Shown here in pieces: positions 2 through 12,856 of a DNA stretch of 64,000 nt (its first letter is position 1; each line of letters begins with the position of its first letter). The notes under the pieces were generated by a model. That model was not told where the DNA came from. It worked only from the letters and a program-made list of their open reading frames with translations, and did not search any database. The DNA comes from a virus: positions 764 to 64,763 of IMG/VR virus record IMGVR_UViG_3300032144_000007; one strand, written 5' to 3'. Both the position numbers and the translations under genes were made by a program.

Positions 2-1417
2 GTCTACAATCCGATCCGGCCTGACGGTCGGCGCAAACGGCGGCAAGCGGTGCTGTCGGTCGGGCGTCGAGCGGGCAAGTCGCTGCTGGCGGCGATCCTC
101 TTGCTGCTGCACCTGGTAGGGCCGTTCAAGAAACCGAACTCGACCATCGTGTCCGCCGCGACGACCCGCAAGCAAGCCGCCATCGTTCACCGCCTCGTCT
201 CAGACATCATCGCCCGCAACACCGCACTCATCCGCAAGCTGAAGGTCATCCCGTCGTCGAAGGTCATCACGCACCGCGACGACGGCTCGACCTACACCGC
301 GATCTCGGCGGACGCCGGAGCGGCGTTCGGCGAAGGCCTGGATTTTGTGATCTATGACGAACTGGCGCAAACCAAGGGCACGGCGCTCTATGACGCGCTG
401 ATGACCTCGCTTGGATCGCAGACCGAACCGCTGATGATGGTGATTTCGACGCAGGCGGCGAATGACGAGCATATCCTCAGTGAATTGATCGACTATGGCC
501 TGAAGGTGAAGGCGGGGCAGATCGAAGACGAGACCTTCACGGTGCACCTCTACACCGCCGACGCGGAATGCAAGCTGGATGATGAAAGCCAGTGGCTGAA
601 GGCAAACCCGACGCTCGGCGACTATCGCGACATCGACGAGTTCCGCACGATGATGCAGCGGGCGGCAAAGATGCCAGCGTTGCAGGCGTCAGTGAGAAAC
701 CTGTACTTGAACCAACGGGTGCAGGCGAAGGCACCGTTCATCACGCAAGGCATTTGGGCGAGGGGAAGCGAACCGATCAACGAGGCGCTGTTCTATGACG
801 GGCGCAAGGTCGGGGCAGGGCTCGACCTGTCGGCTCGCGTGGACTTGTCGGCGCTGGTGATGGCGGCTGAAGACGACGACGGCATCATCCACCTGATGCC
901 GCGCATCTGGACGCCGGACGACACGCTGGACGCTCGTGCGATCCGCGACCGCGCGCCCTACCGCGCATGGGCGGACAAAGACCTGATGATCCCGGTGCCG
1001 GGCGAAGCGCTCGACTATGACTTCCTCGCCGCCGACATCGGCGAACTGTCGCGCACCGTGCCGTTCCACAGGATCGCATACGACCGCTGGCGCATCGACG
1101 TGTTCAAGCAGTCGCTGGCGCGGCAAGGGCTGATCATTCCGCTGATGAGCCACGGACAGGGTTTTAAGGATATGGCACCGACACTGGACCTGTTCGAAGA
1201 ACTGGTTTTGCAGGGTAGGATACGGCACGGCAATCACCCGGTGTTGAAGTGGGCGATGTCGAATGTGGTGGTAGCTTTCGATGCGGCCTATAACCGCAAG
1301 CCTGAGAAGGCGAAGAGTACCGGGCGCATTGACCCGGCTGTGGCCGCATTCATGGCGATTGCGGCGCTCAAACTGGAGACCGAAGCGGCTGTCGATGTCG
1401 CCGCCTTGATCGCCTGA
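2..1417 (+). CDS. terL: Terminase large subunit (5'-truncated at window edge)
   Basis: Frame open from base 2. Walker A-like GRRAGKS, Walker B VIYDE, nuclease GLDLS..DLSA, C-terminal HPVLKWAMSNV..K.KSTGRIDPAVA typical of Terminase_1/HK97-type TerL. Confidence 0.95.
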   Translation, partial: VYNPIRPDGRRKRRQAVLSVGRRAGKSLLAAILLLLHLVGPFKKPNSTIVSAATTRKQAAIVHRLVSDIIARNTALIRKLKVIPSSKVITHRDDGSTYTAISADAGAAFGEGLDFVIYDELAQTKGTALYDALMTSLGSQTEPLMMVISTQAANDEHILSELIDYGLKVKAGQIEDETFTVHLYTADAECKLDDESQWLKANPTLGDYRDIDEFRTMMQRAAKMPALQASVRNLYLNQRVQAKAPFITQGIWARGSEPINEALFYDGRKVGAGLDLSARVDLSALVMAAEDDDGIIHLMPRIWTPDDTLDARAIRDRAPYRAWADKDLMIPVPGEALDYDFLAADIGELSRTVPFHRIAYDRWRIDVFKQSLARQGLIIPLMSHGQGFKDMAPTLDLFEELVLQGRIRHGNHPVLKWAMSNVVVAFDAAYNRKPEKAKSTGRIDPAVAAFMAIAALKLETEAAVDVAALIA

Positions 1418-1435
1418 AACCATAGGGGAAGTCCG

Positions 1436-1636
1436 ATGATCGGAACATTCATCTATCTGGTCGTGGTGTGCGCCGTCGCGGCGCTGGTCTATTGGGCCGT
1501 CGATGCGTTGGGGACGCCGGAGCCAATCGCGCGCATCGTCAAGGTGGCGGCGGTGGTGATCGCCGTCCTGATCATCATCCTGATCTTTCTCAGGATGCTT
1601 GGAATGGCTGACGGCATCACCATCCCGGCGCTATGA
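1436..1636 (+). CDS. Small 2-TM membrane protein (possible holin)
   Basis: 66 aa, two hydrophobic helices, GGGGA SD. Holin role is inference only. Confidence 0.55.
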   Translation: MIGTFIYLVVVCAVAALVYWAVDALGTPEPIARIVKVAAVVIAVLIIILIFLRMLGMADGITIPAL

Positions 1637-1639
1637 GCG

Positions 1640-1870
1640 TCAGGTGAATTTCCAGTTCCAGTCTTCGTCACAGGCGGCGTTGATGCGGATGCCTGTGCCT
1701 TCTTCCGCCATCTTCTTCGCGGCCAGCGCCAGCCGGGCGATCTCGACCCGGTCGAGGTTGGTGACGTTCTGTTCCGCCGCCGTGCGCTCGCACAGTATTT
1801 CGAAGAAGGATTGAGCATTCCGGGCCGTCTCAACGCGCTTCCGGTTCATCCGCATATCGATGATCGTCAT
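1640..1870 (-). CDS. Hypothetical protein
   Basis: Start re-called at MTIIDMR with GGAG SD; packed in leftward operon. Confidence 0.6.
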   Translation of the reverse strand: MTIIDMRMNRKRVETARNAQSFFEILCERTAAEQNVTNLDRVEIARLALAAKKMAEEGTGIRINAACDEDWNWKFT

Positions 1871-2100
1871 GCCTGCTCCCTGTGGACGGTGAGACCAAGG
1901 CAAAAGGCGGCGGCTTGGATTTCCAGCGCTTCCGCCAGCAGCGGACTGGTGATGTCGCCATGCACCCGGTAAACGCGGAACTCGCCCTTGCCGGTGACCC
2001 TGTCGTGCCAGACGGCACAATCGACATGCCAGACCATGCCCTCATGTTCGATGCGGCGATGGTTCTCGCTGAAGACTTTCTTGCGGGCTGCAATTTTCAT
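1867..2100 (-). CDS. Hypothetical protein
   Basis: Start MKIAARKK with AGGAG SD; 4-nt overlap with next gene. Confidence 0.6.
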   Translation of the reverse strand: MKIAARKKVFSENHRRIEHEGMVWHVDCAVWHDRVTGKGEFRVYRVHGDITSPLLAEALEIQAAAFCLGLTVHREQA

Positions 2101-2108
2101 GACTGCTC

Positions 2109-2195
2109 CTACAGGCGAAAGAGTTGTCGGATGAAGACGTAGAAGGCGGCGGCGATCACGAGCCAAGCGCATGCCCAAATCAGAATCGCTTCCAT
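2109..2195 (-). CDS. 28-aa hydrophobic micro-peptide (MEAILIWACAWLVIAAAFYVFIRQLFRL)
   Basis: Read manually; fills the gap between two operon genes; single TM with basic tail. Confidence 0.4.
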   Translation of the reverse strand: MEAILIWACAWLVIAAAFYVFIRQLFRL

Positions 2196-2197
2196 GG

Positions 2198-2536
2198 TCA
2201 ATAGTCCAGTCGCTTGTCACGGACGTTGTACGGCGTCGCCTTTCCGTCCGCGTGGCGGTAGCGCAACGAATATCCATGACGATAGAAGCAGTTTCGCAGA
2301 TCGTCGATCTGGCCGCTGAAATCGGCAAACTGGCCGTAGAGATAATCCTGCGTTCCGCTGATCGACTGATAGCGTGCGCCGCATCCCTTGCGGACAGGCT
2401 GCAACGCCGGATCGCTGATCGGCACCTTCTTGTTGTCGGACAGCCGGACGTACTCCGGCTTCCCGATGGAGATGTTGGGATCGGTGACGCACCCGGCGAG
2501 TGGGATGAGTGCGGCGAGCGCGATGATCCGTTTCAT
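2198..2536 (-). CDS. Predicted lipoprotein
   Basis: MKR + hydrophobic stretch + lipobox LAG-C. Confidence 0.75.
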   Translation of the reverse strand: MKRIIALAALIPLAGCVTDPNISIGKPEYVRLSDNKKVPISDPALQPVRKGCGARYQSISGTQDYLYGQFADFSGQIDDLRNCFYRHGYSLRYRHADGKATPYNVRDKRLDY

Positions 2537-2548
2537 GATGTGATCCTC

Positions 2549-2827
2549 TCAGCCGTGACCGGCGCAAGCTTTGAGACGGGCGATCTCGCCTTCATTGTCG
2601 GAGCCGGACATGGAGCCAAGCGGAAGGCCGATCAGGAAGACGCCGATGGCGTCGGTGTTGGCGGCGGATTGCTGCACGGCGGACAGTTCCTTCAGGCGCT
2701 GCTCGGCTTTGGCAACGGGCGGGCAGTTCGTCTTGTAGGGGAGCGGCTTGATCCGGCCCGGTGGTGTGGCGCAACCGGCGATCAGAGCAGCGACGGCAAC
2801 GGCGATGACGGTAGTGGTTTTCTTCAC
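2549..2827 (-). CDS. Predicted lipoprotein
   Basis: GTG start after AGGA SD; MKK + hydrophobic stretch + lipobox IAG-C; internal hydrophobic hairpin. Confidence 0.7.
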   Translation of the reverse strand: MKKTTTVIAVAVAALIAGCATPPGRIKPLPYKTNCPPVAKAEQRLKELSAVQQSAANTDAIGVFLIGLPLGSMSGSDNEGEIARLKACAGHG

Positions 2828-2837
2828 GGTGATTGTC

Positions 2838-3218
2838 CTACTTCGCAGGGTAGATGGCGGCGATGGTGAAGGCGTCCGCCTCAAAGGTGATTTCGAGATC
2901 GCGGCCATCGCAGGCGGTGTTGATGATGAAGGCGGCTTCAATGAACTCGACGCCATCGTCGCCGCCGAAGGTGTTCTCCTTCGCGTGCCACCAGACATCG
3001 AATGCCATCGTGTCTGGATTGCACTCGCGGGCGTAGATGTGGTTTGGCGTGCCGCGCTCTTCGCCATTGTGCATCAGATAGACGCCTTGATCGCCGACCA
3101 GCCAGAAACCAGCGCCGGTCTCTTGATCCCATTGAGGCCTGACGCCTTTCGGCCACTGGTTGGTCGCGTCTTTGACCAGTTCGATCAGGTCGGCGTTCGC
3201 GAAGGTGAGTTTGTTCAT
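2838..3218 (-). CDS. DUF3085-like protein
   Basis: Motifs FWLVGDQGVYLM, YARECNP, FGGDDGVEFI. Confidence 0.7.
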   Translation of the reverse strand: MNKLTFANADLIELVKDATNQWPKGVRPQWDQETGAGFWLVGDQGVYLMHNGEERGTPNHIYARECNPDTMAFDVWWHAKENTFGGDDGVEFIEAAFIINTACDGRDLEITFEADAFTIAAIYPAK

Positions 3219-3227
3219 GGCCGCGAC

Positions 3228-3506
3228 TCAGAAGCAGTTGCCGTAGGCGTCGCAGGACCACGAGTTGCCCTTCGAACTCCAGCCATTCGTGCGACCGGTC
3301 GAGCCGTTGGTGCGCTGATTCCACATCGTTCCGGTGTTGTAATTGTAGCCTTGCGTGGTCGAGTTGCCGTACGTGTCGCGGCGAGTCGTGTAGCTGTTGC
3401 CGCTCTGGTAGTCATAGCAGCGCGTGGTCGAGCCGAACGAGTTGCACCCTGCATAGGCAGGAGCGGCAATGAGGGTCGCAGCGACGGCGATGATGAGCTT
3501 CTTCAT
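3228..3506 (-). CDS. Secreted Cys/Gly/Thr-rich small protein
   Basis: Sec signal MKKLIIAVAATLIAAPAYA; AAGGA SD; four Cys. Confidence 0.75.
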   Translation of the reverse strand: MKKLIIAVAATLIAAPAYAGCNSFGSTTRCYDYQSGNSYTTRRDTYGNSTTQGYNYNTGTMWNQRTNGSTGRTNGWSSKGNSWSCDAYGNCF

Positions 3507-3544
3507 GGTGATTTTCCTTGGTGAGTTGGTTTGACGGCGGCTTG

Positions 3545-4654
3545 TTAAGCGGCCTTCTTGGAATTGTTGAACGCTTCGATGATGTCGGCGAGCGGGGTGA
3601 GGGCGTCCAGCTTCGGCTCGATCAGCAGCGCCTCGAAACCCTTGAACATACCGAACACGGATGCCAGCTTCATCTTCTGGCTTTCGTCCTGTGCATTGTC
3701 GGGGTGCAGGCACGACAGCACCTTGCGGAACTGTGCCTTCGTCATGATGCCCTTCTCGTGCGAGCGGACGATCTGCTCGGCCAGTTCGATGCGGCGACCG
3801 TAGACCGGAAGGACGCTGTTGTTGATGAAGGTCTCGATGCCAGCAGCGATGCGACCGCCGACTTCCTTCTCCAGTGCGCGGCGCTCGACCTTCAGTGCGG
3901 CCTCGACACGCTTGGCGATCTTCTTTTCCAGCTTTTCATCGACCGGCTTTGCTTCCGGCTCGACATGCGTCAGCTTCAGCGGATCGATCTCGGTCGGCTT
4001 GACGACGGGCTCGATGGCGGGGCGCTTGTTGAGCCAGCTACCGTCAGTTGCGATTTCGGAATTATTCCGCTTCTGCATCACGCGGCTCACTGTCGCAGCG
4101 TTGACGCCGACTTCGTCAGCGGCTTCCTTCTGCGTCTTGCCTTCGGAAACCAGCGCGACGATCTTCTTGTTGCGGTCTTCCTCCAGCAGTTCGCGCGTCT
4201 CGGCAGTGATCTTCGTCGCCGACGATTCGGACACGCCGAACATGTCGGCGACTTCCTTCAGAGAGAACCCGTCGAAGACGAGATCGTTCATCATCTGGTC
4301 GCGCTGCTGGCGGGTGAGGTGGCGACGGCCAAGGTTCTGCGACAGGGCGAACCGGCGCGCGGCTTCATCGTTCGGGAAGTCGATGAAGGCGACCGGAACC
4401 TGATCGTCCTTGCCGATCTCCTTCAGTGCCGTCCATCGCGAACGGCCATCGACGATTTTGTTCTGGCCGGAATAGACGATGATCGGCGACGTCGCGTTGA
4501 AGCCGTGGTCGAGGATCGAACGCTTCAGCGTCTGGAAATCTTCGTCGGACGGGAAGGGGAAAGCCGATGCGGCCTGATGGATTTCGAACTCGACGGCCTT
4601 CGGGTTTACGTACTGGATTGTAGCGGCGAAACCGCAGATAACCATGTCAGTCAT
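3545..4654 (-). CDS. ParB/Srx-like N-terminal domain plus HTH domains
   Basis: IVDGRSR (ParB-like DG.HR motif), FALSQNLGRRHLT, two HTH-like segments (SLKEVADMFGVSES; TQKEAADEVGVNAATVSR); AGGAG SD at MTDMVI. Confidence 0.75.
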   Translation of the reverse strand: MTDMVICGFAATIQYVNPKAVEFEIHQAASAFPFPSDEDFQTLKRSILDHGFNATSPIIVYSGQNKIVDGRSRWTALKEIGKDDQVPVAFIDFPNDEAARRFALSQNLGRRHLTRQQRDQMMNDLVFDGFSLKEVADMFGVSESSATKITAETRELLEEDRNKKIVALVSEGKTQKEAADEVGVNAATVSRVMQKRNNSEIATDGSWLNKRPAIEPVVKPTEIDPLKLTHVEPEAKPVDEKLEKKIAKRVEAALKVERRALEKEVGGRIAAGIETFINNSVLPVYGRRIELAEQIVRSHEKGIMTKAQFRKVLSCLHPDNAQDESQKMKLASVFGMFKGFEALLIEPKLDALTPLADIIEAFNNSKKAA

Positions 4655-4707
4655 TGCCTTGCTCCTGTTTTGCAGCCCTACGCCGCGTTGATGTACATAG
4701 ATGTAAA

Positions 4708-4760
4708 TTACCCTCACGGTAAATGCAAGTGTTGCAATCGAACAAATTTGCATTTAAGGA
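4708..4760 (+). promoter_or_regulatory. Sigma70-like promoter of Y RNA-Ro60 operon with palindromic operator candidates
   Basis: TTGCAA(4732-4737)-17 nt-TAAGGA(4755-4760); predicted +1 near 4767 coincides with the 5' end of the first Y RNA stem; CAAATTTG in spacer; TTACC-N5-GGTAA at 4708-4722. Confidence 0.55.
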
Positions 4761-4766
4761 ATGATT

Positions 4767-4839
4767 GTCGGTGTGGCGAAAGATCGCGGTTACTTCCTTT
4801 GAACGGAACCTCGTACCGCTTTCGTTTATTCCCATCGGC
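4767..4839 (+). ncRNA. Y RNA-like unit 1 (73 nt, minimal)
   Basis: Terminal stem GTCGGTG/CATCGGC; 5' motif TGGCGAAAG (fits bacterial Ro-binding GNCGAAN0-1G); CGGTTACTTC; 3' TTCC; inner GCGGT(T)AC/GTACCGC pairing. Confidence 0.75.
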
Positions 4840-4854
4840 GCTTCGGACGATTTC

Positions 4855-4988
4855 GTCTGGCGTGGCGTAGAGATCGGTTACTTCATGTAATCTGTGGGTC
4901 GTCGGTTCGAATCCGGCTCCGGCTTTGCCGGGTAGCTCAGTGGTAGAGCAACGGAAAAAAGCCCGAACTCGCTTCATTCCCGCCAGAC
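4855..4988 (+). ncRNA. yrlA: YrlA-type Y RNA (circularly permuted tRNA mimic), unit 2
   Basis: Terminal stem GTCTGGCG/CGCCAGAC; TGGCGTAG..CGGTTACTTC; T arm GTCGG-TTCGAAT-CCGGC (4901-4917) BEFORE a loop-closed acceptor stem TCCGGC-TTT-GCCGGG (4918-4932) and D arm AGCTC-AGTGGTA-GAGC; TCTGT/ACGGA stem replaces the anticodon arm. Confidence 0.92.
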
Positions 4989-5001
4989 CTCAATGACTGC
5001 G

Positions 5002-5069
5002 CTGACGTGGCGTAGGACGCGGCTACTTCTTTCAAATGGTGGACGCCGCTATCCGTTTGTTCCCGTCAG
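5002..5069 (+). ncRNA. Y RNA-like unit 3 (68 nt, minimal)
   Basis: Terminal stem CTGACG/CGTCAG; TGGCGTAG..CGGCTACTTC; GCGGC/GCCGC inner stem; 3' TTCC. Confidence 0.75.
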
Positions 5070-5078
5070 AACCGTCAA

Positions 5079-5208
5079 GTCGGGCGTGGCGAAAGGACCG
5101 GTTACTTCGGAAAAGCAGTTGGTTAACAGCCGACTGTGAGTGGTCTTCAAAGTCCACAGCACCATGCTTAGGATGGTGTGTTAACCGACCTGATTTTTCC
5201 CGCCCGAC
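5079..5208 (+). ncRNA. Y RNA-like unit 4 (130 nt, branched distal domain)
   Basis: Terminal stem GTCGGGCG/CGCCCGAC; TGGCGAAAG..CGGTTACTTC; GGTTAAC/GTTAACC stem enclosing two hairpins (TTCAAA loop; CACCAT-GCTTAGG-ATGGTG). Confidence 0.78.
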
Positions 5209-5266
5209 CCTCGTCCCTTCGCGCCCTGGTACGCCTCGATCGACGATCGAAAACAGGAGACCAGGC

Positions 5267-6571
5267 ATGCGCAAGAACAACAAGATCAAGTCCGAAATCA
5301 CCACTCACGAAGGCGCTCCGGCTGTCGGCATCACGCCGGTCCAGCAGCTGCGCCGGTCGATCCTGTCGTGCCTTCTTTGGGAACGCGAGTTCTATGAAGA
5401 CGGCCAGTCCATCGTGGATCGCATCGTCGAGACCGCCGCCAAGGTGCCGAAGGACGAGGTGGCGAAACTCGCCATCGAAGCACGCACGACCCACGGCCTG
5501 CGCCATGCGCCACTGATGCTGCTGCTCGACCTCATCCGTCGTGGCGGTCCGGGCGTCGCCGACGCTATCGAAGGCACGATCTCGCGTCCCGACGAAATCA
5601 CCGAACTGGTCGCGCTCTACTGGCTGAAGGGCAAGCGTCCGCTGTCGGCGCAGATGAAGATCGGTCTGGCCCGCGCGTTCGCCAAGTTCAACGAGTATTC
5701 GCTGGCGAAGTATGACCGCGACGGCAAGGTGCGTCTGCGCGACGTCCTGTTCCTGTGCCACGCCAAGGGCGCGACGGAAGAACAGGCGGCGGTCTACAAG
5801 CGGCTTGCCAACAAGGAACTGAAGACGCCGGACACGTGGGAAGTCGCCCTGTCTGGCGGCGCGGACAAGAAGGAGACGTTCACCCGTCTGCTGACGGAAG
5901 GAAAGCTTGGCTATCTGGCTCTGCTGCGCAACCTGCGCAACATGGTCGATGCCGGTGTCGATATCGATCTGGTGCGTCAGGCCATTCTGAAGCGCAGTGG
6001 TGCAAAGCTGGTCTTCCCGTTCCGCTATGTCGCCGCTGCTCGCGTGGTGCCGCAGCTGGAGTCGGTTCTCGACGTGGCGCTGATCGACGCGGTGACGGAA
6101 GGCGTGCATCTGCCCGGCAAGACGATTGTGCTGGTGGACGTATCCGGTTCGATGGATGCCAAGATGTCGGCCAAGTCGGACATGACCCGCATGGATGCGG
6201 CGGCAACGCTGGCATCTGTGATCAACGGCGATCTCAGGGTGTTCTCGTTCTCCGGTCACACCAAGGAAGTCCCGGCACGTCGCGGCATGGCCGGTGTCGA
6301 TGCGATCATCCATTCGCAGCTTCACGGCGGCACGGAACTCGGCGGTGCGGTGCGCCACGCCAACGCGCTTGCGCACGACCGGCTGATCGTCATCACCGAC
6401 GAACAGTCCGCGACGCGCGTCCCGGCTCCGAAGGCTGGCAAGGCCTACATGATCAACGTCGCGTCCTACAAGAACGGCGTCGGTTACCGGAACGGCTGGA
6501 CGCACATCGACGGTTTCTCTGAAGCGGTCATCCGCTACATCGCCGCGATGGAAGGTCTGGTGTCGGAATGA
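5267..6571 (+). CDS. rsr: Ro60/Rsr TROVE-domain RNA-binding protein
   Basis: N-terminal THEGAPA, SCLLWEREFYEDG, vWA MIDAS DVSGSM, IVITDEQS, C-terminal INVASYKNGVGY..W.HIDGFSE; start at 5267 with AGGAG SD; 434 aa. Confidence 0.93.
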   Translation: MRKNNKIKSEITTHEGAPAVGITPVQQLRRSILSCLLWEREFYEDGQSIVDRIVETAAKVPKDEVAKLAIEARTTHGLRHAPLMLLLDLIRRGGPGVADAIEGTISRPDEITELVALYWLKGKRPLSAQMKIGLARAFAKFNEYSLAKYDRDGKVRLRDVLFLCHAKGATEEQAAVYKRLANKELKTPDTWEVALSGGADKKETFTRLLTEGKLGYLALLRNLRNMVDAGVDIDLVRQAILKRSGAKLVFPFRYVAAARVVPQLESVLDVALIDAVTEGVHLPGKTIVLVDVSGSMDAKMSAKSDMTRMDAAATLASVINGDLRVFSFSGHTKEVPARRGMAGVDAIIHSQLHGGTELGGAVRHANALAHDRLIVITDEQSATRVPAPKAGKAYMINVASYKNGVGYRNGWTHIDGFSEAVIRYIAAMEGLVSE

Positions 6572-6774
6572 AGGAGAAAACCGCCGCGATCCTTCGGGAC
6601 ATCTTCGACGAGACGGAAACGGATCGGCCTGACAAGTCGTTCGAATGGCTGTTGCAAATGACAGCCGACGTCGCAAACCAGCGGCACGGCTGGCGGTTCG
6701 AACCGCACGACATCGTGCAGGCACTGGCGATGGGAGTGCCAAAGCTGGCCGATGAGAAGACCATGAAGCAGTAA
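6568..6774 (+). CDS. Hypothetical protein translationally coupled to Ro60
   Basis: ATGA overlap with Ro60 stop; lies before the operon terminator. Confidence 0.65.
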   Translation: MKEKTAAILRDIFDETETDRPDKSFEWLLQMTADVANQRHGWRFEPHDIVQALAMGVPKLADEKTMKQ

Positions 6775-6776
6775 AG

Positions 6777-6802
6777 AAAGGGGCCGCGAAAGCGGCCCTT
6801 TT
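6777..6802. terminator. Bidirectional intrinsic terminator
   Basis: AAAGGGCCGC-GAAA-GCGGCCCTTTT between convergent operons. Confidence 0.85.
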
Positions 6803-6873
6803 CACAGGAAGGCGAGCAGGATGAAGAGCAGGGCGATCACGATCAGAAAGGTGAAGGCCTGACGCTCGTTCAT
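6802..6873 (-). CDS. 23-aa membrane micro-peptide (MNERQAFTFLIVIALLFILLAFL)
   Basis: Read manually; TGATG coupling to upstream gene; AAGGA SD. Confidence 0.5.
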   Translation of the reverse strand: MNERQAFTFLIVIALLFILLAFL

Positions 6874-7043
6874 CACCGATCCTTTCTGCGCTCCAGTTCG
6901 ACGACCCGCCGATGCAGATCATTGATCAGGATGCGTTGCAACCGCGCTGTCTTTGCGGCGTAGATCAGGCCGACAGCGACGAGCAGCATGCCCATGGTCT
7001 GAAAGAACTCTCTGAAGGCCGACAGCCAATCCATCAATGTCAT
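6873..7043 (-). CDS. Small membrane protein
   Basis: One TM helix plus coiled-coil tail; ATGA coupling. Confidence 0.5.
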   Translation of the reverse strand: MTLMDWLSAFREFFQTMGMLLVAVGLIYAAKTARLQRILINDLHRRVVELERRKDR

Positions 7044-7333
7044 GCGTCGATCCATTCTTCGCCAGTTTCCAGGTTGCGTCGTCTTCCGGTGCCAAAGTGC
7101 CGGTGCCAGCGGTCGCCGGGATCGCCAGTGCCATCCCAATTCATGAGCGCGCTGATCGCGTCGGGCAGGTGCTTGAAGCAATACCTGTCGGCGTAACCGT
7201 TGTGGTCGATGTCCACATGGAGCGTCCAGTGAAACATCAGCCGCAGCACGCCGCCGAGCCGCCCATCAGGAAGCGTGCGAAGGATGACGTAGGATTTGCG
7301 TATGCGAGGGTCGAGATCGTCAGGGGTTATCAT
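7040..7333 (-). CDS. Hypothetical phage protein
   Basis: 97 aa; GGAGG SD; RYCF..WDG.GDP motif. Confidence 0.7.
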   Translation of the reverse strand: MITPDDLDPRIRKSYVILRTLPDGRLGGVLRLMFHWTLHVDIDHNGYADRYCFKHLPDAISALMNWDGTGDPGDRWHRHFGTGRRRNLETGEEWIDA

Positions 7334-7511
7334 GGAGTGTTGCCTCCATCGTTTCGGCGGACAGGCGCAATCCTGTCGCCATGAAGTCGAGCCAGCGTTC
7401 GACAGCTTTATCGACTTCGGCTTTCGTTTTTGGCAGTGGAATGCGCAGTTCGGACGAAAAGCCGCCAGACGCCAGCTTGAAGCCGAAGATCACTTCGTCA
7501 GGGGTTATCAT
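7320..7511 (-). CDS. Hypothetical protein
   Basis: 63 aa, overlapping operon packing, AGGA SD. Confidence 0.6.
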   Translation of the reverse strand: MITPDEVIFGFKLASGGFSSELRIPLPKTKAEVDKAVERWLDFMATGLRLSAETMEATLHDNP

Positions 7512-7710
7512 CGCGATCCTGTTCCGCCGCCATGCCGACGACCTTCAGCCGCAATTCCGCCAGCACCTCGTCACGTGCAGCAGCCTCATCAGGGGCCGAC
7601 GTGATGAAGTCGTCGATCAGTTCTTCCAGAATGATGGCAAACTCCTTCGCTGGCGCGTCGATGGCCGTCACTTCGCCATCTGCATTGATGGTCAGTCTTT
7701 CACCGGGCAT
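7498..7710 (-). CDS. Hypothetical protein
   Basis: 70 aa acidic; AGGAG SD. Confidence 0.6.
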   Translation of the reverse strand: MPGERLTINADGEVTAIDAPAKEFAIILEELIDDFITSAPDEAAARDEVLAELRLKVVGMAAEQDRDDNP

Positions 7711-7721
7711 GTCGTCTTCTC

Positions 7722-7934
7722 CTATCCAAATTTCCGCGCCTTCATGCGCGCTATCAGTGCCTCGATATCGTCGAGGTTGTCGTCGGTGATGCAGACCTCT
7801 GCATCCTCGTCTTCCGGGGCTCGCACGAGCAGCGTCAGCTTCACGTCAGCGGTGAAGCATTTCCTCAAGTCGTTGAGCGTGTCCGCCGCCATCTTGTGGA
7901 ACAGTTCCAACCCTTCGATTTCAACATCATCCAT
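7722..7934 (-). CDS. Hypothetical protein
   Basis: 70 aa; AAGG SD; operon packing. Confidence 0.6.
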   Translation of the reverse strand: MDDVEIEGLELFHKMAADTLNDLRKCFTADVKLTLLVRAPEDEDAEVCITDDNLDDIEALIARMKARKFG

Positions 7935-8328
7935 TGTTCGCCACCTTCAATGTGAACCCCTGTGCCCGCTTGCGGTCGGCGACCAGAGACGAACGGCTTT
8001 CCTTGCGCCGATACATCCTGACGACGCCCCAATGCCAGCGTTGGGCGTCATCCCATGTGCAATGCCGCCAGCAGCCCTGTTCGTCGCCTGTGGCGAAGTG
8101 CGGGCTGAAGGGGCTTCCGTGCTGGCGGGCGAAGACCATAGTCTCAAACAGGACGGGATCGCCTTCTCCCCAAAAATTGTGATCGATGCCAAGGAAGACG
8201 GTCGAGACCACGAAGTGCCGCGTCATCGTCAGGGCAACGTGGCGGTCGGCGGTCTCAAACCAGCGGCCAAATTCCAGAATGCTACGGCATACCACCGGCT
8301 GCTTCCCGACAAGGATGTAATGGCGCAT
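7927..8328 (-). CDS. Hypothetical phage protein (VSTVFLGIDH..LFETMVF family)
   Basis: Motif recurrent in phage hypothetical proteins; TGATG coupling. Confidence 0.65.
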   Translation of the reverse strand: MRHYILVGKQPVVCRSILEFGRWFETADRHVALTMTRHFVVSTVFLGIDHNFWGEGDPVLFETMVFARQHGSPFSPHFATGDEQGCWRHCTWDDAQRWHWGVVRMYRRKESRSSLVADRKRAQGFTLKVANNG

Positions 8329-8780
8329 CAGAACCCCCTGTTCGGGCGGCAAGGCCTGAGAACCGGATCGTCTGGATCGACGCCATTGGCCTCGGCCATC
8401 TCGCGATAGGAGCCATAGAGTTCGTGCGGGCTTTCCGGCAAGTCGGCCCAATCGAAGCGGCCAGCAGCGATGGCGAGCCGGATGCCGAGATTATGATCGG
8501 CATTGGCGTTGAGGAAGCCGTTGCAGACTGCACCCTTCTCGATGCCGGACATGTGGCAGGAGAACACGTTCTGCGCCATGTCATAGGCTGTCGTCGCGGA
8601 ATGGCGATAGGCGCTGGCCGGGAAGGCACCAATGGGCGCATCCTTGCGCCATGGGCATTCGTCGCAAATCTTGCGCCGGAAGATCAGCGGCCCGTCATTC
8701 GGGCTCGTGATCGTTGCCACCTGATGATGCCCGTCGCCGCAATCGAATATGGACGTCTTGTGTTTCTTCCGTCTTGCCAT
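8328..8780 (-). CDS. Cys-rich protein, DUF6283-like
   Basis: C..CPWRKD..G.FP, TAYD..FSCH.SG, C.GFL pattern. Confidence 0.65.
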   Translation of the reverse strand: MARRKKHKTSIFDCGDGHHQVATITSPNDGPLIFRRKICDECPWRKDAPIGAFPASAYRHSATTAYDMAQNVFSCHMSGIEKGAVCNGFLNANADHNLGIRLAIAAGRFDWADLPESPHELYGSYREMAEANGVDPDDPVLRPCRPNRGF

Positions 8781-9003
8781 CGGTTTTCTCGTAGCGCTTG
8801 GCGCTTTCGTTGTAGATCATCACGTTGGGATAGCGCTGTTTGAACAGCCTGAAATCGAGTGCCACCTGTGGCTCTGAAATACCGAACTTCCTGACGACGT
8901 GATCTCGGTTGATGAAGCCGTAAATGTCGAGCATCTCGGCGATCCACGCCATGCGGTGGTCGATATACCACTCGCGGCCCTTCTCCTTGCCGGGCTTACC
9001 CAT
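8695..9003 (-). CDS. Stand-alone CapW/BrxR-like winged-helix domain
   Basis: W..RM.WI..L..G.INR..V..FGIS..Q..DF..F..YP..M.YN.S.K.YE matches the N-terminal wHTH pattern of WYL repressors; no WYL domain follows. Confidence 0.65.
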   Translation of the reverse strand: MGKPGKEKGREWYIDHRMAWIAEMLDIYGFINRDHVVRKFGISEPQVALDFRLFKQRYPNVMIYNESAKRYEKTDGKTEETQDVHIRLRRRASSGGNDHEPE

Positions 9004-9244
9004 GGGCGTCTAGCAGCTTGTCGGCGTTCTCTGCGATCAGCTTCTGGACCAGTTCCGACAGCATTTGGAGGGCAACGATCTGCACCGCGACCGATTCGCC
9101 CTTGACCCGAAAGACATAGGTTCCGATGCCAACCCGGATGAACTCTTCAAGCAACATGAACTGCTCTTCGCCGCTCTGACAGTCGTTCATCTTGTTGAGC
9201 AGGTAGCCGCCAAATTCGGCTCTGATTTCTTTGGCTATCGTCAT
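8996..9244 (-). CDS. Hypothetical protein
   Basis: 82 aa, operon packing. Confidence 0.6.
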   Translation of the reverse strand: MTIAKEIRAEFGGYLLNKMNDCQSGEEQFMLLEEFIRVGIGTYVFRVKGESVAVQIVALQMLSELVQKLIAENADKLLDAHG

Positions 9245-9492
9245 TTCCCGAATCCTCCCTTGTTGGCCGTCAGCGCGGCGTTATAGGCGTCGCATCCAGC
9301 GGGCGTGACGAAGTAGGCGTTGCCGAGCGAGACCGGCACGCCGACCGGGCCATGATCCGTGAGCCAGCCTTGCTTCGCCATGTCGGCGGCAAGCTTGCCA
9401 CGGCGCGGGCCATCGACGAGGAATGGCGCTTCAGGGAACCGCGCGTTGTAGCTGTAGATTTGCTTGAACAGCTTCGCTTGCCGGGGTGTCAC
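9241..9492 (-). CDS. Hypothetical protein
   Basis: 83 aa, 4-nt overlaps at both ends. Confidence 0.6.
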   Translation of the reverse strand: MTPRQAKLFKQIYSYNARFPEAPFLVDGPRRGKLAADMAKQGWLTDHGPVGVPVSLGNAYFVTPAGCDAYNAALTANKGGFGK

Positions 9493-9734
9493 ATCCAGAC
9501 CTCAAGGATAACGGGATTGTCTTCTGGATCGCGGGGCATGCGAAAAAGGCCCGCCCGCATCAACGGGCGGCGGATGCCGATCAGGTGCGGGGTAACGTGG
9601 ACGTGCTGATCAACGTATATTTTTCCGCCTCTGACGATGAAGTGGCGGCGACACGTGAACATGCCCGGAAAGTCTGCCGGTGACCGGCAGACCACGTATT
9701 GCACCAAGGCGTCATCAAGCAGCCCGGCTTGCAT
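9489..9734 (-). CDS. Hypothetical phage protein
   Basis: C-terminal R.P.D.PVI.EVW motif; start uncertain. Confidence 0.55.
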   Translation of the reverse strand: MQAGLLDDALVQYVVCRSPADFPGMFTCRRHFIVRGGKIYVDQHVHVTPHLIGIRRPLMRAGLFRMPRDPEDNPVILEVWM

Positions 9735-10395
9735 CGGAAGCCTCTTGGCCTTCCGGCTCGACGATGATCGGATCAACGGTAGCAGGCTGAAGCTTGCTGG
9801 CGAGCGTGTAGCTGTTCGCGTCGTCCATGACGATAACACCTTCAAGCTTCAGCTTGCTAAGGCAGCTGTCGAAGGTGTGAAGCGAACGGCCCTGAAGGTC
9901 GATGAGGTTGAGAAGGTCGTCGCGCGACAGCGGGTGAGGGAACGCCTCGAAAGCCGCCATGACTTGCGTGCGAATGGAAACGCCGGTCGTCGGCTCTTCC
10001 TTGACCTTGCCGGTATAGCCCGGCAACGCGTATTTGCCGCCGCCAACAGAGATGATCTCGCCCTTTTTCTTCAATTGGTTGAGCGGATTGGATGCGCTCT
10101 TCTTGGCGCGGCTACCGTAGTTGAGACGCTTGGATATCTGCTCTGCTTTGAGTGCCTTGCCGCCCTCAAGAAGTTTGATGATCTGCGATGACAGGGACGG
10201 GCCGTCCTTCGATGCCGCCGCTGATTCCTTCCGGGGAGCGGTGGTGCCACCTATCTTCTGGACGGTGAACATCGGTCCGGCCTTCGGAGCCGGTGCGCTT
10301 TCAAGCTTCTCGACGACCGCAAGCGCGATCTGGAGGCGTTCGATCTCTGACAGGTGCTGATCGATCTCAGCCCTGATCTTCTCGATCATGTTCAT
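9715..10395 (-). CDS. Coiled-coil plus two putative winged-helix domains
   Basis: Start MNMIEK with GAGGG SD; two helix-turn-helix-wing-like segments ending GKYAL and SYTL. Confidence 0.6.
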   Translation of the reverse strand: MNMIEKIRAEIDQHLSEIERLQIALAVVEKLESAPAPKAGPMFTVQKIGGTTAPRKESAAASKDGPSLSSQIIKLLEGGKALKAEQISKRLNYGSRAKKSASNPLNQLKKKGEIISVGGGKYALPGYTGKVKEEPTTGVSIRTQVMAAFEAFPHPLSRDDLLNLIDLQGRSLHTFDSCLSKLKLEGVIVMDDANSYTLASKLQPATVDPIIVEPEGQEASDASRAA

Positions 10396-10570
10396 TGTAT
10401 GCCCTCGCTTCTGTGATGAATGATTCAAGCATCTGGAAAACGTCTTCTTCGCTTGCCTCAACCGCAATGAGTGCAAGCATCGCCGCCAGTACCGCCTTCG
10501 CATTCTCTGTCGGATCGTCGCTGTTCGCGATCATGTGGACGATATCTGAGACGGTAAGCTCTACGGTCAT
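10367..10570 (-). CDS. Hypothetical protein
   Basis: Start MTVELT, coupled to upstream HTH gene. Confidence 0.55.
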   Translation of the reverse strand: MTVELTVSDIVHMIANSDDPTENAKAVLAAMLALIAVEASEEDVFQMLESFITEARAYNEHDREDQG

Positions 10571-10854
10571 CGGCGGACCGCGACGCGATATCCCAACACC
10601 TGAAGGATTTTGATCACGGTCGAAGCGCGCGGATCGCGCGTTACGCCATGTGCGATGTTGGAAACGGTTGCAGAGCAGCATGACGCCTTCTCGGCGATCT
10701 TATTGTACTTCATCTTGGAGAGACGTATCTCGCCAGCAACGAACTTCGTCAGTTCGTAGATGTTTTCGAAGCTGATGTTCTCCGACTGTATCTGCACTGC
10801 CATTGGTTTAGCCGCCTTGCGCGCAGCGGACGACATCGAGACTACGTTCACCAT
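10567..10854 (-). CDS. Cro/C1-type HTH protein
   Basis: YNKIAEKASCCSATVSNIAHGVTRDPRASTVIKIL. Confidence 0.75.
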   Translation of the reverse strand: MVNVVSMSSAARKAAKPMAVQIQSENISFENIYELTKFVAGEIRLSKMKYNKIAEKASCCSATVSNIAHGVTRDPRASTVIKILQVLGYRVAVRR

Positions 10855-10863
10855 CTATAGCTC

Positions 10864-11070
10864 CTATCTGGATTGATTGCCTTGTACTGTCCGATTGTTC
10901 TCGGCTTCACCTTCGGACCGCCGTGCGATCTCGTTATTGATAGCTGTGCGGATGAACGCGACACGCGTTTCGCCGACCGCCCGAACGCTTTCCAGGCGCT
11001 CCGGCATGTCCCCCAACAGAGGCAGGTTGATGCTCTTTGAGACCGACCCGTTGGCCGCGCGTGTGATCAT
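10864..11070 (-). CDS. Ribbon-helix-helix (CopG/Arc-like) regulator
   Basis: SINLPL beta strand followed by two helices (ETRVAFIRTAINNEI). Confidence 0.6.
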   Translation of the reverse strand: MITRAANGSVSKSINLPLLGDMPERLESVRAVGETRVAFIRTAINNEIARRSEGEAENNRTVQGNQSR

Positions 11071-11087
11071 AACAAATCCTGCATAAC

Positions 11088-11132
11088 TATGTACATAAAC
11101 TACTTGACGTTGCGGTAATTAAAGTACATAAA
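11088..11132 (+). promoter_or_regulatory. Divergent promoter region
   Basis: TTGACG(11104)-17 nt-CATAAA; perfect palindrome TATGTACATA at 11088-11097. Confidence 0.45.
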
Positions 11133-11167
11133 TAATTCATAAACGCAAGGGGTAACGGACGCAAACC

Positions 11168-11650
11168 ATGATTATCGACATCCAAGCACATCCTTCTTTC
11201 CAGCGCCGTCAGGAAGAGCAGACTGTAGAGCGAATTACGACGCTAGAACAAGGGCTTATCGATGGTCTATCGAACAACTGCCTGCTTGGCGAACTGGCGC
11301 TGAAGCAGGTCGAGAACGACCCTTCTCAAGCCGGAACAACTCGCCTTATCAACACCCGCAGAGCCCTCGATACCCTTCTGACGGGAATCGAAGTGGAAGA
11401 GCCGAATTTCGACTTTGCCAGCGAATCGTTTCTGGCGCTTTATGGCCCGGTGAAGCAGCGCATGCGCGACCTTTCCAAGGCGCTCGCCGACGCCATCGAT
11501 CAGCGCGCCATGGCCGCGACCGCCGAACCGGTGCGGATCGAAGTCGTCGTCCAGCCTCAGAAGCAGCAACGCTCGTGGGTGCCGCAGGTTCTCGGCGTCG
11601 CCATCCTCGTCACCATCGGTGGCATGATCCTCAACGCTCTTGGTGCCTGA
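11168..11650 (+). CDS. Hypothetical protein with C-terminal TM anchor
   Basis: 160 aa helical, terminal hydrophobic helix. Confidence 0.7.
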   Translation: MIIDIQAHPSFQRRQEEQTVERITTLEQGLIDGLSNNCLLGELALKQVENDPSQAGTTRLINTRRALDTLLTGIEVEEPNFDFASESFLALYGPVKQRMRDLSKALADAIDQRAMAATAEPVRIEVVVQPQKQQRSWVPQVLGVAILVTIGGMILNALGA

Positions 11651-11654
11651 TCTC

Positions 11655-11852
11655 ATGACAACGGTTACCCGCAAGGTCTGGTGCGAGAAAACGCGCCAAT
11701 ATCTCATGATGGATTTCGAGGTTGCCATCGACCTCGACAAGTTGCCGGTCTCGGCGATTTACGGTGCAGCCCGCAATGTGCAGGGCAAGTCGATTATCGG
11801 CTATGGCACCATCACAGTGAAACGCGTCGGCAAAGGATTGGAACGGCCATGA
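11655..11852 (+). CDS. Hypothetical protein
   Basis: 65 aa directly after the preceding gene. Confidence 0.55.
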   Translation: MTTVTRKVWCEKTRQYLMMDFEVAIDLDKLPVSAIYGAARNVQGKSIIGYGTITVKRVGKGLERP

Positions 11853-11868
11853 TGATCGTTAACGCCGA

Positions 11869-12069
11869 ATGAAGATGCACGCCGCCAGTCTCATTGCGGC
11901 ACAGGCTTGCTGCATCATTATCGGCTGGCATGTCGCCAATTTCGATTGGCAGCTGGTGCGGCGATTGAGTTGGGCGGCGCTGCACTTCCTCGATCCATGG
12001 CCGCGTTGGATCATCTGCTACAAGATCGGCGTGACGGTCGGGCAGCTGGCCTACAGGAAGCGGCAATGA
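11869..12069 (+). CDS. Small hydrophobic protein
   Basis: 66 aa, Trp-rich hydrophobic. Confidence 0.45.
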   Translation: MKMHAASLIAAQACCIIIGWHVANFDWQLVRRLSWAALHFLDPWPRWIICYKIGVTVGQLAYRKRQ

Positions 12070-12180
12070 AAAAGCCCGCCGAAGTGGCGGGCAATAGACA
12101 GGAGTAGATCAAAAATCTCAGTCATTCATCACATCGTCATGATACCGAACGCCGCCGCTTTCACAAGTGGCGGTTTTTTA
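12069..12180. terminator. Two terminator hairpins between convergent units
   Basis: AAAAA-GCCCGCC-GAAGT-GGCGGGC (T-tract on minus strand) and CCGCCGCT-TTCACA-AGTGGCGG-TTTTT (T-tract on plus strand). Confidence 0.65.
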
Positions 12181-12215
12181 TGCGTTGCACATTCGGAAGA
12201 TTTCCTGATCTGCAA

Positions 12216-12494
12216 TCAGTCGGCATTTCCCATCCAGTTCGGATTGCCAGCCGGGCGCTTCGATGGCTCGATGTGCGGGTTTTTCTTCTTCTCGGCCACA
12301 AGGTTCTCTGGCAGTTGCCATGGGCCAAGACCAGCAGCGATGGCAGCACAGGCCAGAGGCAGATAGGCCGGGATTGATTTGCCGCTTTCATAGACCCGCA
12401 ATGAGTTGAGCGCGATGCCGAGTGTCTTCGCCGCCGCCTTGCGGTCAAGGCCGAAGTGCATCTCGCGCCATTTGATAAAATCGAATGCGTCCAT
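12216..12494 (-). CDS. HTH transcriptional regulator
   Basis: F..WR..GL.RK.AAK.LG.ALNSLR.YESG..IP..L.LAC. Confidence 0.8.
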   Translation of the reverse strand: MDAFDFIKWREMHFGLDRKAAAKTLGIALNSLRVYESGKSIPAYLPLACAAIAAGLGPWQLPENLVAEKKKNPHIEPSKRPAGNPNWMGNAD

Positions 12495-12526
12495 TTCCGT
12501 ATCAACCCTCGTGTTGTGTTGACAGA

Positions 12527-12577
12527 CATCTATCCAAATTTGGTGGTTTTGTAAAGCGGTAATCGGTCATGTATACT
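12527..12577. promoter_or_regulatory. Back-to-back promoters between two HTH genes
   Basis: Plus: TTGTAA(12549)-17-TATACT(12572). Minus: TTTACA(12555)-17-TAGATG with CCAAATTTGG palindrome in the spacer. Confidence 0.6.
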
Positions 12578-12595
12578 GTTGCCACTCTCAAAAGC

Positions 12596-12820
12596 ATGGG
12601 GACGCGCATGTCGGAAGTCGATCTCGCCGCGATAATCGCTGGCCTTGAAGCCACAGGAATGTCGCGAACAGAGATCGCCACCGAAGCGAAATTGTCCCGC
12701 AATACCGTCTGGCGCATGGCGCAGGGCGAAGTCCGCGATCCGAACTATTCCACCGTCATGCGGATAAAAAATCTGTCAGATCGACGAACTGTTCGACACG
12801 CCGAACAAAAACGGGCGTAA
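12596..12820 (+). CDS. Cro-like HTH protein
   Basis: GMSRTEIATEAKLSRNTVWRMAQGEVRDPNYSTV; start 12596 or 12608. Confidence 0.75.
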   Translation: MGTRMSEVDLAAIIAGLEATGMSRTEIATEAKLSRNTVWRMAQGEVRDPNYSTVMRIKNLSDRRTVRHAEQKRA

Positions 12821-12856
12821 ATAGACGCGCAACTCTCTCAACAGAGGTTGCGCATC

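What the first reader, a model, noticed from the sequence alone, without database searches (positions are those of the whole stretch)
4732..6802. Self-contained phage cassette: four tandem Y-RNA modules + Ro60 + partner ORF
Seen: four consecutive units (4767-4839, 4855-4988, 5002-5069, 5079-5208), separated by only 9-15 nt. Each has its own closing stem with a different sequence but intact pairing. All share 5' TGGCG(A/T)A(A/G)...CGG(T/C)TACTTC and 3' TTCC, while the distal domains differ completely (73, 134, 68, 130 nt). A promoter starts at the first unit; Ro60 follows 58 nt after the last unit, then a coupled ORF and a terminator. Established: Ro60/Rsr binds Y RNAs through a bulged helix (GNCGAAN0-1G), and Salmonella carries two (yrlA/yrlB) beside rsr-rtcBA; some phages carry Ro and YrlA. 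Inference: a four-member array with one docking stem and interchangeable payloads, and no RtcB/RtcA in the window, looks like a modular Ro60 RNP toolkit (tethers or decoys for different host RNA-processing or defence factors). I do not recall such a phage array being described, but cannot verify novelty.
Basis: partly seen in the sequence, partly recalled or inferred. Interest (0 to 1): 0.9.

Follow-up and report, generated by a model that had tools for sequence, protein, structure and literature searches.

The report
Four Y-RNAs beside phage Ro60
A temperate phage carries four back-to-back small structured RNA genes in front of its gene for the RNA-binding ring protein Ro60; they are real and almost certainly Ro60's partner "Y RNAs", but the same layout sits beside this type of Ro60 in about a hundred other phage and bacterial sequences, so it is a typical member of a known partnership, not a one-off.

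Summary
Four units (4767-4840, 4855-4988, 5002-5069, 5079-5208, + strand) share one handle: a lower stem, a bulged U, GG:CC, an internal loop with GGCG(A/U)A(A/G), an 8-bp upper stem ending CGG:CCG, then UUACUUC. Each closing stem has its own sequence.

A covariance model built only from other loci finds units 1-3 and nothing else credible in 64 kb. A second model finds all four. Across 105 related Ro60 loci plus the window it gives 295 hits, all on the Ro60 strand, 1-8 per locus. Stem pairing is 95-96% with compensatory changes at 14-15 of 16 pairs.

- Unit 2 is a sub-threshold YrlA tRNA mimic (48 bits, cut-off 69).
- Units 1 and 3 are short hairpin types.
- Unit 4 has a three-hairpin head with no relative found.

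The protein (5267-6571) is a TROVE+vWA Ro60, closest to the solved Thermus phage phiLo Ro60. The "partner ORF" is an ORFan and not conserved.

Multiple Y RNAs beside Ro60 are already known (Deinococcus, Salmonella, phage phiLo), and YrlA is reported in 22 phages. This scan has noted such arrays before on other DNA (e.g. e1-3280332, e1-3283709). Expression and Ro60 binding remain untested.

Verdict: new member of a known kind, moderate interest.

The parts
4720..4756 (.). Perfect 9-bp inverted repeat (4720-4728 / 4748-4756) that brackets the -35 and overlaps the -10; possible operator
   Evidence: Related loci carry a palindrome TGTTGC-N5-GCAACA at the same place.
4732..4760 (+). Promoter-like site: TTGCAA, 17-nt spacer, TAAGGA. 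It predicts a start at about G4767, the first base of unit 1.
   Evidence: Read. The same TTGCNN-17-TANNNN layout lies 5-8 nt before the first unit in L004, L005, L008, L026, L027 and L033. The strict consensus scan did not call it. Inferred, not shown.
4767..4840 (+). Unit 1: short Y-RNA-like module. The handle carries GGCGAAAG, an exact GNCGAAN0-1G.
   Evidence: R1 58.5 bits; independent R2 43.4 bits, E 1.6e-9; fold.
4855..4988 (+). Unit 2: YrlA-type Y RNA. Handle plus a tRNA-like head with T arm, closed acceptor-like stem and D arm.
   Evidence: Rfam YrlA RF02553 48.1 bits (cut-off 69), E 1.1e-9; R1 31.6 bits; R2 32.3 bits; fold z -2.63; orthologue in L033 with changed stems.
5002..5069 (+). 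Unit 3: short Y-RNA-like module
   Evidence: R1 65.0 bits; independent R2 57.7 bits, E 1.9e-13.
5079..5208 (+). Unit 4: the handle (GGCGAAAG) plus a three-hairpin head in a four-way junction. There is no canonical T or D arm, and no relative of the head was found.
   Evidence: R1 40.3 bits, E 2.7e-7, not in the training set; fold z -4.64, 0 of 200 shuffles as stable; no Rfam hit; no similar head in the other fetched loci or in IMG/VR.
5267..6571 (+). Ro60 (TROVE + vWA, 434 aa) with MIDAS DxSxS at residues 291-295. An AGGAG ribosome-binding site lies a few nt upstream of the ATG.
   Evidence: Pfam TROVE 45.2 bits (cut-off 23) and VWA_2 28.6 (cut-off 27); phrog_850 E 1.1e-46 over the full length; PDB 9KOP/9L5Y phiLo Ro60 E 1.5e-21, residues 8-429.
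6568..6774 (+). 68-aa ORF that overlaps the Ro60 stop (ATGA). It is an ORFan and not a conserved part of the module.
   Evidence: No Pfam, PHROG or NCBIfam hit; no tblastn hit in related loci; only itself among 5.8 billion proteins.
6781..6798 (.). GC-rich hairpin (7-bp stem, GAAA loop) followed by TTTT; terminator-like in both directions
   Evidence: The scan lists it on the - strand. On the + strand the T run is only 4 long.

Best explanation
The region is one transcription unit of a temperate siphophage. It encodes four Y-RNA-like non-coding RNAs followed by their binding protein Ro60.

Transcription probably starts at the first base of unit 1 and reads through all four units into Ro60. There is no terminator until 6781-6798. 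Host RNases would then cut the 9-14 nt spacers to release four RNAs of about 74, 134, 68 and 130 nt.

Each RNA would dock on Ro60 through the shared handle: lower stem, bulged U, GG:CC, internal loop carrying GGCG(A/U)A(A/G), and an 8-bp upper stem ending CGG:CCG.

The heads differ. Unit 2 is a YrlA-type tRNA mimic, units 1 and 3 are small hairpins, and unit 4 is a unique three-hairpin junction. By analogy with Deinococcus, Salmonella and Thermus phage phiLo, the RNAs would gate Ro60's cavity and tether it to host factors such as PNPase. That would redirect host structured-RNA decay or quality control during infection or lysogeny.

Shown here: the RNA structure (by covariation), its exclusive linkage and shared strand with Ro60, and the identity of the protein.
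Inferred: the promoter, processing into separate RNAs, Ro60 binding, and any effector.
For: Shared handle and private closing stems.

Covariation:
- RNAalifold on 24 short units gives 16 pairs, 13 of them compensatory.
- A MAFFT-only alignment of 28 metagenomic units with a hand-drawn structure is 96.0% paired, against 68.2% shuffled and 37-49% slid. 14 of 16 pairs are compensatory, and the covariation score is 0.802 against 0.225.
- 126 distinct model-aligned units are 95.3% paired.

Specificity:
- 73 + 19 + 203 = 295 R1 hits, all on the Ro60 strand and nearly all directly upstream of Ro60.
- Whole-record scans of a 280-kb and a 43-kb phage and of this record hit only the Ro60-adjacent array.
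- The independent model R2 finds units 1-3 in the window and nothing else above 12 bits.

Other support:
- Unit 2 and the long units of relatives are sub-threshold YrlA.
- GGCGAAAG in units 1 and 4 fits the published Ro60-site motif GNCGAAN0-1G (PMC4201824).
- The protein is Ro60.
- Each unit folds as its own domain within the 500-nt leader.
- Published precedent: phage phiLo Ro60 binds two upstream Yrl RNAs and host PNPase (PMC12135203).
Against: There are no expression data, and no ends or processing sites are known.

Units 2 and 3 have GGCGUAG, not CGAA. In phiLo, single changes in CGAA cost 3-4 fold in affinity.

Rfam's YrlA cut-off is not reached.

Of seven basic residues shown to matter for RNA binding in phiLo Ro60, only three align with a basic residue here. 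This is my reading of the alignment, and the alignment in that stretch is weak.

The invariant UUACUUC is not explained by pairing, and no known Ro60 contact accounts for it.
Confidence: 0.8

Rival explanations
1. The array is mainly a cis-acting 5' leader of the Ro60 mRNA. Ro60 would bind the repeated handles on its own transcript to autoregulate translation or stability, and no stable trans-acting RNAs would be released.
For: No terminator lies between unit 4 and the Ro60 start, and only 58 nt separate them. The whole 500-nt leader folds as a chain of independent domains.
Against: In several related loci the array lies downstream of Ro60 or well away from its start: L065 and L023, also L059, L070 and L021. 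This does not fit an obligatory leader. Bacterial Y RNAs encoded upstream of rsr accumulate as discrete RNAs (PMC4201824). tRNA-like heads make little sense for a leader alone. The two roles are not exclusive.
Confidence: 0.1
2. The units are decayed or permuted tRNA genes from a former phage tRNA cluster, with no link to Ro60.
For: Unit 2 contains T- and D-arm sequences. Public records annotate parts of equivalent units as tRNA-Thr and tRNA-Gln. Rfam's tRNA model gives marginal hits of 29-33 bits inside long units of relatives. One related Ro60 locus (L007) sits in a true tRNA array.
Against: ARAGORN and Rfam find no tRNA in the window. Units 1 and 3 have no tRNA features, and unit 4 has no canonical T or D arm. 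The non-tRNA handle is the conserved and covarying part. The handle occurs only beside Ro60.
Confidence: 0.03
3. The repeats act as DNA, for example as iterons or protein-binding sites, and not as RNA.
For: They form a tandem arrangement with a conserved core. A ParB-N/HTH gene is transcribed divergently just upstream.
Against: Compensatory base changes keep the pairing while the sequence drifts, with G:U pairs tolerated and a strict strand bias of 295 out of 295. These are signatures of RNA, not of DNA sites.
Confidence: 0.02

Closest known systems
Salmonella Typhimurium rsr-yrlB-yrlA (Chen et al. 2013/2014; PMC4201824; Rfam RF02553)
   Same: A Ro60 gene sits with a short Y RNA and a tRNA-like YrlA on the same strand. 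The GNCGAAN0-1G motif lies on the 5' strand of the terminal stem. The head has T arm, closed stem and D arm. The minimal array in the closest relatives here is likewise short unit, then YrlA-like unit, then Ro60.
   Different: The RNAs lie upstream of Ro60, not downstream. There is no RtcB/RtcA and no sign of a sigma-54 promoter. There are four units, not two. YrlA similarity is below Rfam's cut-off (48 against 69 bits). The handle has clade-specific invariants: a bulged U, GG:CC and NUACUUC.
Deinococcus radiodurans rsr with four small RNAs encoded upstream (Yrn1, Yrn2 and two others; PMC4201824)
   Same: Several small RNAs are encoded in a row upstream of Ro60. At least one tethers Ro60 to PNPase.
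   Different: That locus is cellular and stress-induced. Its RNAs do not share an obvious common handle, and only some bind Rsr strongly. Here all four carry the same handle.
Thermus phage phiLo Ro60 with Yrl1 and Yrl2 (NAR 2025, PMC12135203; PDB 9KOP, 9L5Y)
   Same: A phage-encoded Ro60 with simple stem-bulge-stem Y-like RNAs carrying CGAA directly upstream of the gene. It is the closest solved structure to this protein (E 1.5e-21). Binding to the RNAs and to host PNPase was shown in vitro.
   Different: Two RNAs, not four, and no tRNA-like unit is reported. I read the protein alignment as distant; no identity figure was computed. The handle consensus was not compared, because the phiLo RNA sequences were not fetched.
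[quoted passage not shown] 2014; that paper reports 22 phages)
   Same: The same kind of locus. CcrColossus carries about eight units of the handle family found here, upstream of its TROVE gene: seven by model R1 and one more by motif.
   Different: The 2014 search used a YrlA (tRNA-like) model. The short units and odd heads such as unit 4 would not have been found by it. I could not read its supplementary tables to see how many RNAs per phage were listed.

Membership tests
Bacterial/phage Y RNA (Ro60 partner RNA) | Encoded within a few kb of a Ro60 gene, on the same strand | tested here: met
   All four units lie 58-500 nt upstream of Ro60 on the + strand. All 295 family hits are on the Ro60 strand.
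Bacterial/phage Y RNA (Ro60 partner RNA) | 5' and 3' ends pair into a long stem interrupted by a bulge or internal loop, supported by covariation | tested here: met
   95-96% of cells are paired and 14-15 of 16 pairs are compensatory.
Bacterial/phage Y RNA (Ro60 partner RNA) | GNCGAAN0-1G motif on the 5' strand of the stem (PMC4201824) | tested here: inconclusive
   Units 1 and 4 have GGCGAAAG, an exact fit. Units 2 and 3 have GGCGUAG, one base off. Across the family that position is A, U or C.
Bacterial/phage Y RNA (Ro60 partner RNA) | Physically bound by Ro60 in vivo or in vitro | not testable with these tools
   Needs EMSA or immunoprecipitation.
Bacterial/phage Y RNA (Ro60 partner RNA) | Accumulates as a discrete small RNA | not testable with these tools
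   No RNA run could be found for this DNA, so the feature could not be tested.
YrlA (Rfam RF02553) | Reaches Rfam's gathering score (69 bits) | tested here: not met
   Unit 2 scores 48.1 bits, E 1.1e-9. Units 1, 3 and 4 have no hit. Relatives' long units score 35-56 bits.
YrlA (Rfam RF02553) | Head with T arm, closed acceptor-like stem-loop and D arm in that order | tested here: met
   Met for unit 2 only: the cmscan alignment covers model positions 1-114 with all three hairpins. Not met for units 1, 3 and 4.
Ro60 / Rsr (TROVE + vWA) | TROVE domain above Pfam's cut-off, plus a vWA domain with MIDAS DxSxS | tested here: met
   TROVE 45.2 bits (cut-off 23) and VWA_2 28.6 (cut-off 27). D291-x-S293-x-S295 is read.
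Ro60 / Rsr (TROVE + vWA) | Full-length similarity to a Ro60 of solved ring structure | tested here: met
   phiLo Ro60 9KOP/9L5Y, E 1.5e-21, query residues 8-429. The fold itself was not predicted.
rsr-rtcBA RNA repair operon | RtcB ligase (and RtcA) encoded with Ro60 | tested here: not met
   No RtcB (PF01139) in the 66-kb record. RtcA was not searched.

The most novel reading that the evidence does not exclude
The array is a phage-carried adaptor set. One Ro60 handle is fused to different heads, and each head recruits Ro60 to, or titrates, a different host factor. Unit 4 would be a head class not seen elsewhere, and the invariant UUACUUC would be a second, undescribed protein-contact site. 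In this temperate phage the cassette, with its own promoter, possible operator and terminator, would act as a moron. It would be expressed from the prophage to reshape host RNA decay or to blunt tRNA-targeting defences.
Probability: 0.2. Interest if true: 0.7.

Novelty: new member of a known kind. Interest (0 to 1): 0.4.

Why it matters
Ro60-Y RNA particles are conserved from bacteria to humans, and Ro60 is a major lupus and Sjogren autoantigen. What Y RNA heads recruit is known for very few cases.

This window adds little on its own. The family it belongs to is more useful. It has about 300 units in about 100 loci, with a covariation-proven handle and a natural library of heads. It occurs in cultivable phages of Xanthomonas and Caulobacter. 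That gives a tractable system for asking what the heads bind and why phages carry Ro60.

The family is also missed by routine annotation. Rfam's cut-off is not reached, and parts of units are mislabelled as tRNA genes in public records.

Tried and rejected
- Rfam at gathering thresholds found nothing in the window. ARAGORN found no tRNA or tmRNA.
- RNA evidence: no RNA holder is listed. Only one soil-metagenome DNA run holds the stretch, probably the source sample. I did not lay reads.
- Partner ORF: no family, no tblastn match in related loci, and no homologue in the large protein collection. Clustering all ORFs within 1.8 kb downstream of Ro60 in 108 loci gave only the antisense shadow of Ro60 as a shared 'ORF'. 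I therefore sent no complex-prediction job.
- Unit 4 head: no Rfam family even at E 10. No similar sequence in the related loci. No exact-pattern match in IMG/VR.
- First motif scripts with loose patterns gave false positives and register errors. Covariance models replaced them.
- cmsearch with filters off handles the long inserts badly and is not informative for units 2 and 4.
- A weak R2 hit at 62203-62239 (- strand, 12 bits, E 0.69) lies inside an ORF and is at chance level.
- Literature: the supplementary tables of Chen et al. 2014, and the reviews PMC10870794 and PMC6542706, are not held. I cannot exclude that multi-unit phage arrays are listed there. Four full-text searches found no paper describing them.
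- Sigma-54/RtcR control and an alphaproteobacterial LexA box were considered for the promoter-region palindrome and rejected by eye, because the spacing and half-sites do not fit.
Full report
**What is there**

The window is most of a 66-kb IMG/VR virus record. It belongs to a temperate tailed phage: large terminase at 50-1414, capsid-protease fusion, portal, tape measure, tail J and a tyrosine integrase at 34613-35881. It comes from a soil metagenome.

Its coordinates are essentially right.

**The four units**

Aligned, they share GUGGCG(A/U)A(A/G), then CGG(U/C)UACUUC, and at the 3' end UUCCC. Each folds with its own closing stem of 6-8 bp, a bulged U and GG:CC. In a fold of the whole 500-nt leader, each unit forms a separate domain.

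Reading the alignments of relatives shows the full handle:
- a lower stem;
- a bulged U;
- GG:CC;
- an asymmetric internal loop, with 5' YG(A/U/C)A(R) opposite 3' G-N-Y-U-N-U-U;
- an 8-bp upper stem ending CGG:CCG;
- a head that begins with NUACUUC.

**Is it more than chance?**

Public phage genomes with a similar Ro60 have the same repeated motif in the long non-coding stretch before the gene. Xanthomonas phage 10KY502B has five units. Caulobacter phage CcrColossus has about eight: seven by model R1 and one more by motif.

I fetched 21 IMG/VR loci, 7 bacterial genome loci and 76 metagenome loci that encode relatives of the protein.

- A covariance model from 24 short units (R1) gave 73, 19 and 203 hits in these sets. 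Every hit is on the Ro60 strand and almost all are directly upstream of the gene, 1-8 per locus. Some loci are duplicated between collections. Of the 223 aligned hits, 190 are distinct.
- In the 64-kb window, R1 finds exactly the four units. This includes units 2 and 4, which were not used to build it.
- A second model was built only from 28 metagenomic units aligned by MAFFT, with a structure I drew by hand (R2). It finds units 3, 1 and 2 at 57.7, 43.4 and 32.3 bits. Nothing else scores above 12 bits.
- Whole-record scans of a 280-kb phage, a 43-kb phage, two further IMG/VR records and this record hit only the Ro60-adjacent arrays.

**Covariation**

On the sequence-only alignment, 96.0% of cells pair, against 68.2% after shuffling and 37-49% after sliding the partner. 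14 of 16 pairs show changes on both sides. On 126 distinct model-aligned units the figure is 95.3%.

These are structured RNAs tied to Ro60.

**The heads**

Unit lengths in the family are bimodal, at about 60-80 nt and about 120-140 nt. Of 22 long units in the first set, 19 carry a T-arm motif.

- Unit 2 is a YrlA-type tRNA mimic. It scores 48.1 bits on Rfam RF02553, below the 69-bit cut-off, with E 1.1e-9, and it aligns over T arm, closed stem and D arm. The long units of relatives behave the same way, at 35-56 bits.
- Units 1 and 3 are of the short type.
- Unit 4 is unusual. Three hairpins form a four-way junction with the handle, it is very stable (z -4.64), and it has no canonical T or D arm. 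I found no relative of its head anywhere I could look. The closest locus (L033, 71% protein identity) has orthologues of units 1 and 2 with changed stems, but no unit 4.
- The commonest minimal array in relatives is short unit, YrlA-like unit, Ro60.

**The protein and its neighbours**

ORF 5267-6571 has a TROVE domain and a vWA domain with an intact DxSxS motif. It matches phrog_850 over its full length. Its closest solved structure is the Ro60 of Thermus phage phiLo.

There is no RtcB in the record.

The overlapping 68-aa ORF is an ORFan, and no downstream gene travels with Ro60. I therefore drop it from the module.

**Transcription (inferred)**

TTGCAA, a 17-nt spacer and TAAGGA end seven bases before G4767, the first base of unit 1. 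The same geometry precedes the first unit in six relatives.

A perfect 9-bp inverted repeat brackets this site. Relatives have a TGTTGC-N5-GCAACA palindrome on the -35. This suggests a repressor-controlled promoter.

No terminator separates the RNAs from Ro60, so one transcript that is later processed is the simplest reading.

**Mechanism**

Published work supplies the analogy.
- Y RNAs bind the outside of the Ro60 ring through the terminal stem.
- In Deinococcus, the Y RNA tethers Ro60 to PNPase.
- YrlA mimics tRNA and is a substrate of tRNA-recognising enzymes (PMC4201824).
- phiLo Ro60 binds two upstream Yrl RNAs and, with them, host PNPase in vitro (PMC12135203).

I therefore commit to four Ro60-docking RNAs with different heads. 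That they are structured RNAs coupled to Ro60 I put at about 0.9. Handle-mediated Ro60 binding I put at about 0.8. Any specific effector I put at no more than 0.3.

Caveats:
- Units 2 and 3 have CGUA where the motif has CGAA.
- Only part of phiLo's RNA-contact residues align with basic residues here.
- The invariant UUACUUC is unexplained.

**Comparison and novelty**

Several Y RNAs beside one Ro60 gene is an established pattern: four small RNAs upstream of Deinococcus rsr, YrlA and YrlB in Salmonella, and two in phiLo. YrlA has been reported in 22 phages, including CcrColossus.

What I could not find in print is the shared handle with short, tRNA-less units in arrays of up to eight. The key supplementary tables and reviews were not readable.

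This scan has already noted such arrays on other DNA (e1-3280332, e1-3283709 and others). My results agree with those notes and were obtained independently before I read them.

The window is therefore a typical new member of a known kind. Only unit 4's head and the possible operator are local peculiarities.

Noticed in passing
window 4720-4756; L004, L005, L008, L026, L027, L033 just upstream of their first unit: A 9-bp perfect inverted repeat brackets the promoter-like site in the window. Related loci carry a palindrome TGTTGC-N5-GCAACA over the -35. This may be a conserved operator for an unknown regulator of Ro60/Y-RNA expression.
   Followed up: partly
all units; e.g. window 4791-4797, 4878-4884, 5025-5031, 5104-5110: NUACUUC directly after the upper stem is kept in 173 of 190 distinct units, while the stems around it covary. 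Pairing does not explain this conservation. G(A/U)AG of the Ro-site motif could pair with part of it as an alternative fold.
   Followed up: no
L001 1956-2023 (OQ622092.1 20624-20691); L003 1128-1195 (JX100810.1 109217-109284): The public records annotate a 'tRNA-Thr' and a 'tRNA-Gln' that lie inside Y-RNA-like units (L001 1952-2084, L003 1124-1289). These are probably misannotated tRNA-like heads.
   Followed up: partly
L007 (IMG/VR 2896003607_000004): This Ro60 relative (61% identity) sits inside a cluster of about 17 good tRNA genes and has no hit to the handle model. It is a different solution or a different partner set.
   Followed up: no
L065 3834-4307; L023 4351-4497; L059 3360-3428; L070 4116-4185: In these loci the Y-like units lie downstream of Ro60, not upstream.
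   Followed up: no
window 12848-14875 and 14892-15983: Two adjacent genes both match the major-head family phrog_617. The first is fused to a protease-like N-terminal part. The portal gene follows them, which is an unusual order for an HK97-like head module.
   Followed up: no
window 1417-12848: About 11 kb lies between the large terminase and the capsid genes. It includes the Ro60 cassette with its own promoter-like site and terminator, so the cassette looks like a moron inserted in the structural region of a temperate phage (integrase at 34613-35881, - strand).
   Followed up: partly
L026 (Paracoccus sp. ME4 plasmid), L027 (Amaricoccus macauensis), L028-L032 (MAGs): The same handle arrays (2-4 units) precede Ro60 relatives in bacterial replicons, so the family is not confined to free phage genomes. 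I did not check whether these are prophages.
   Followed up: no
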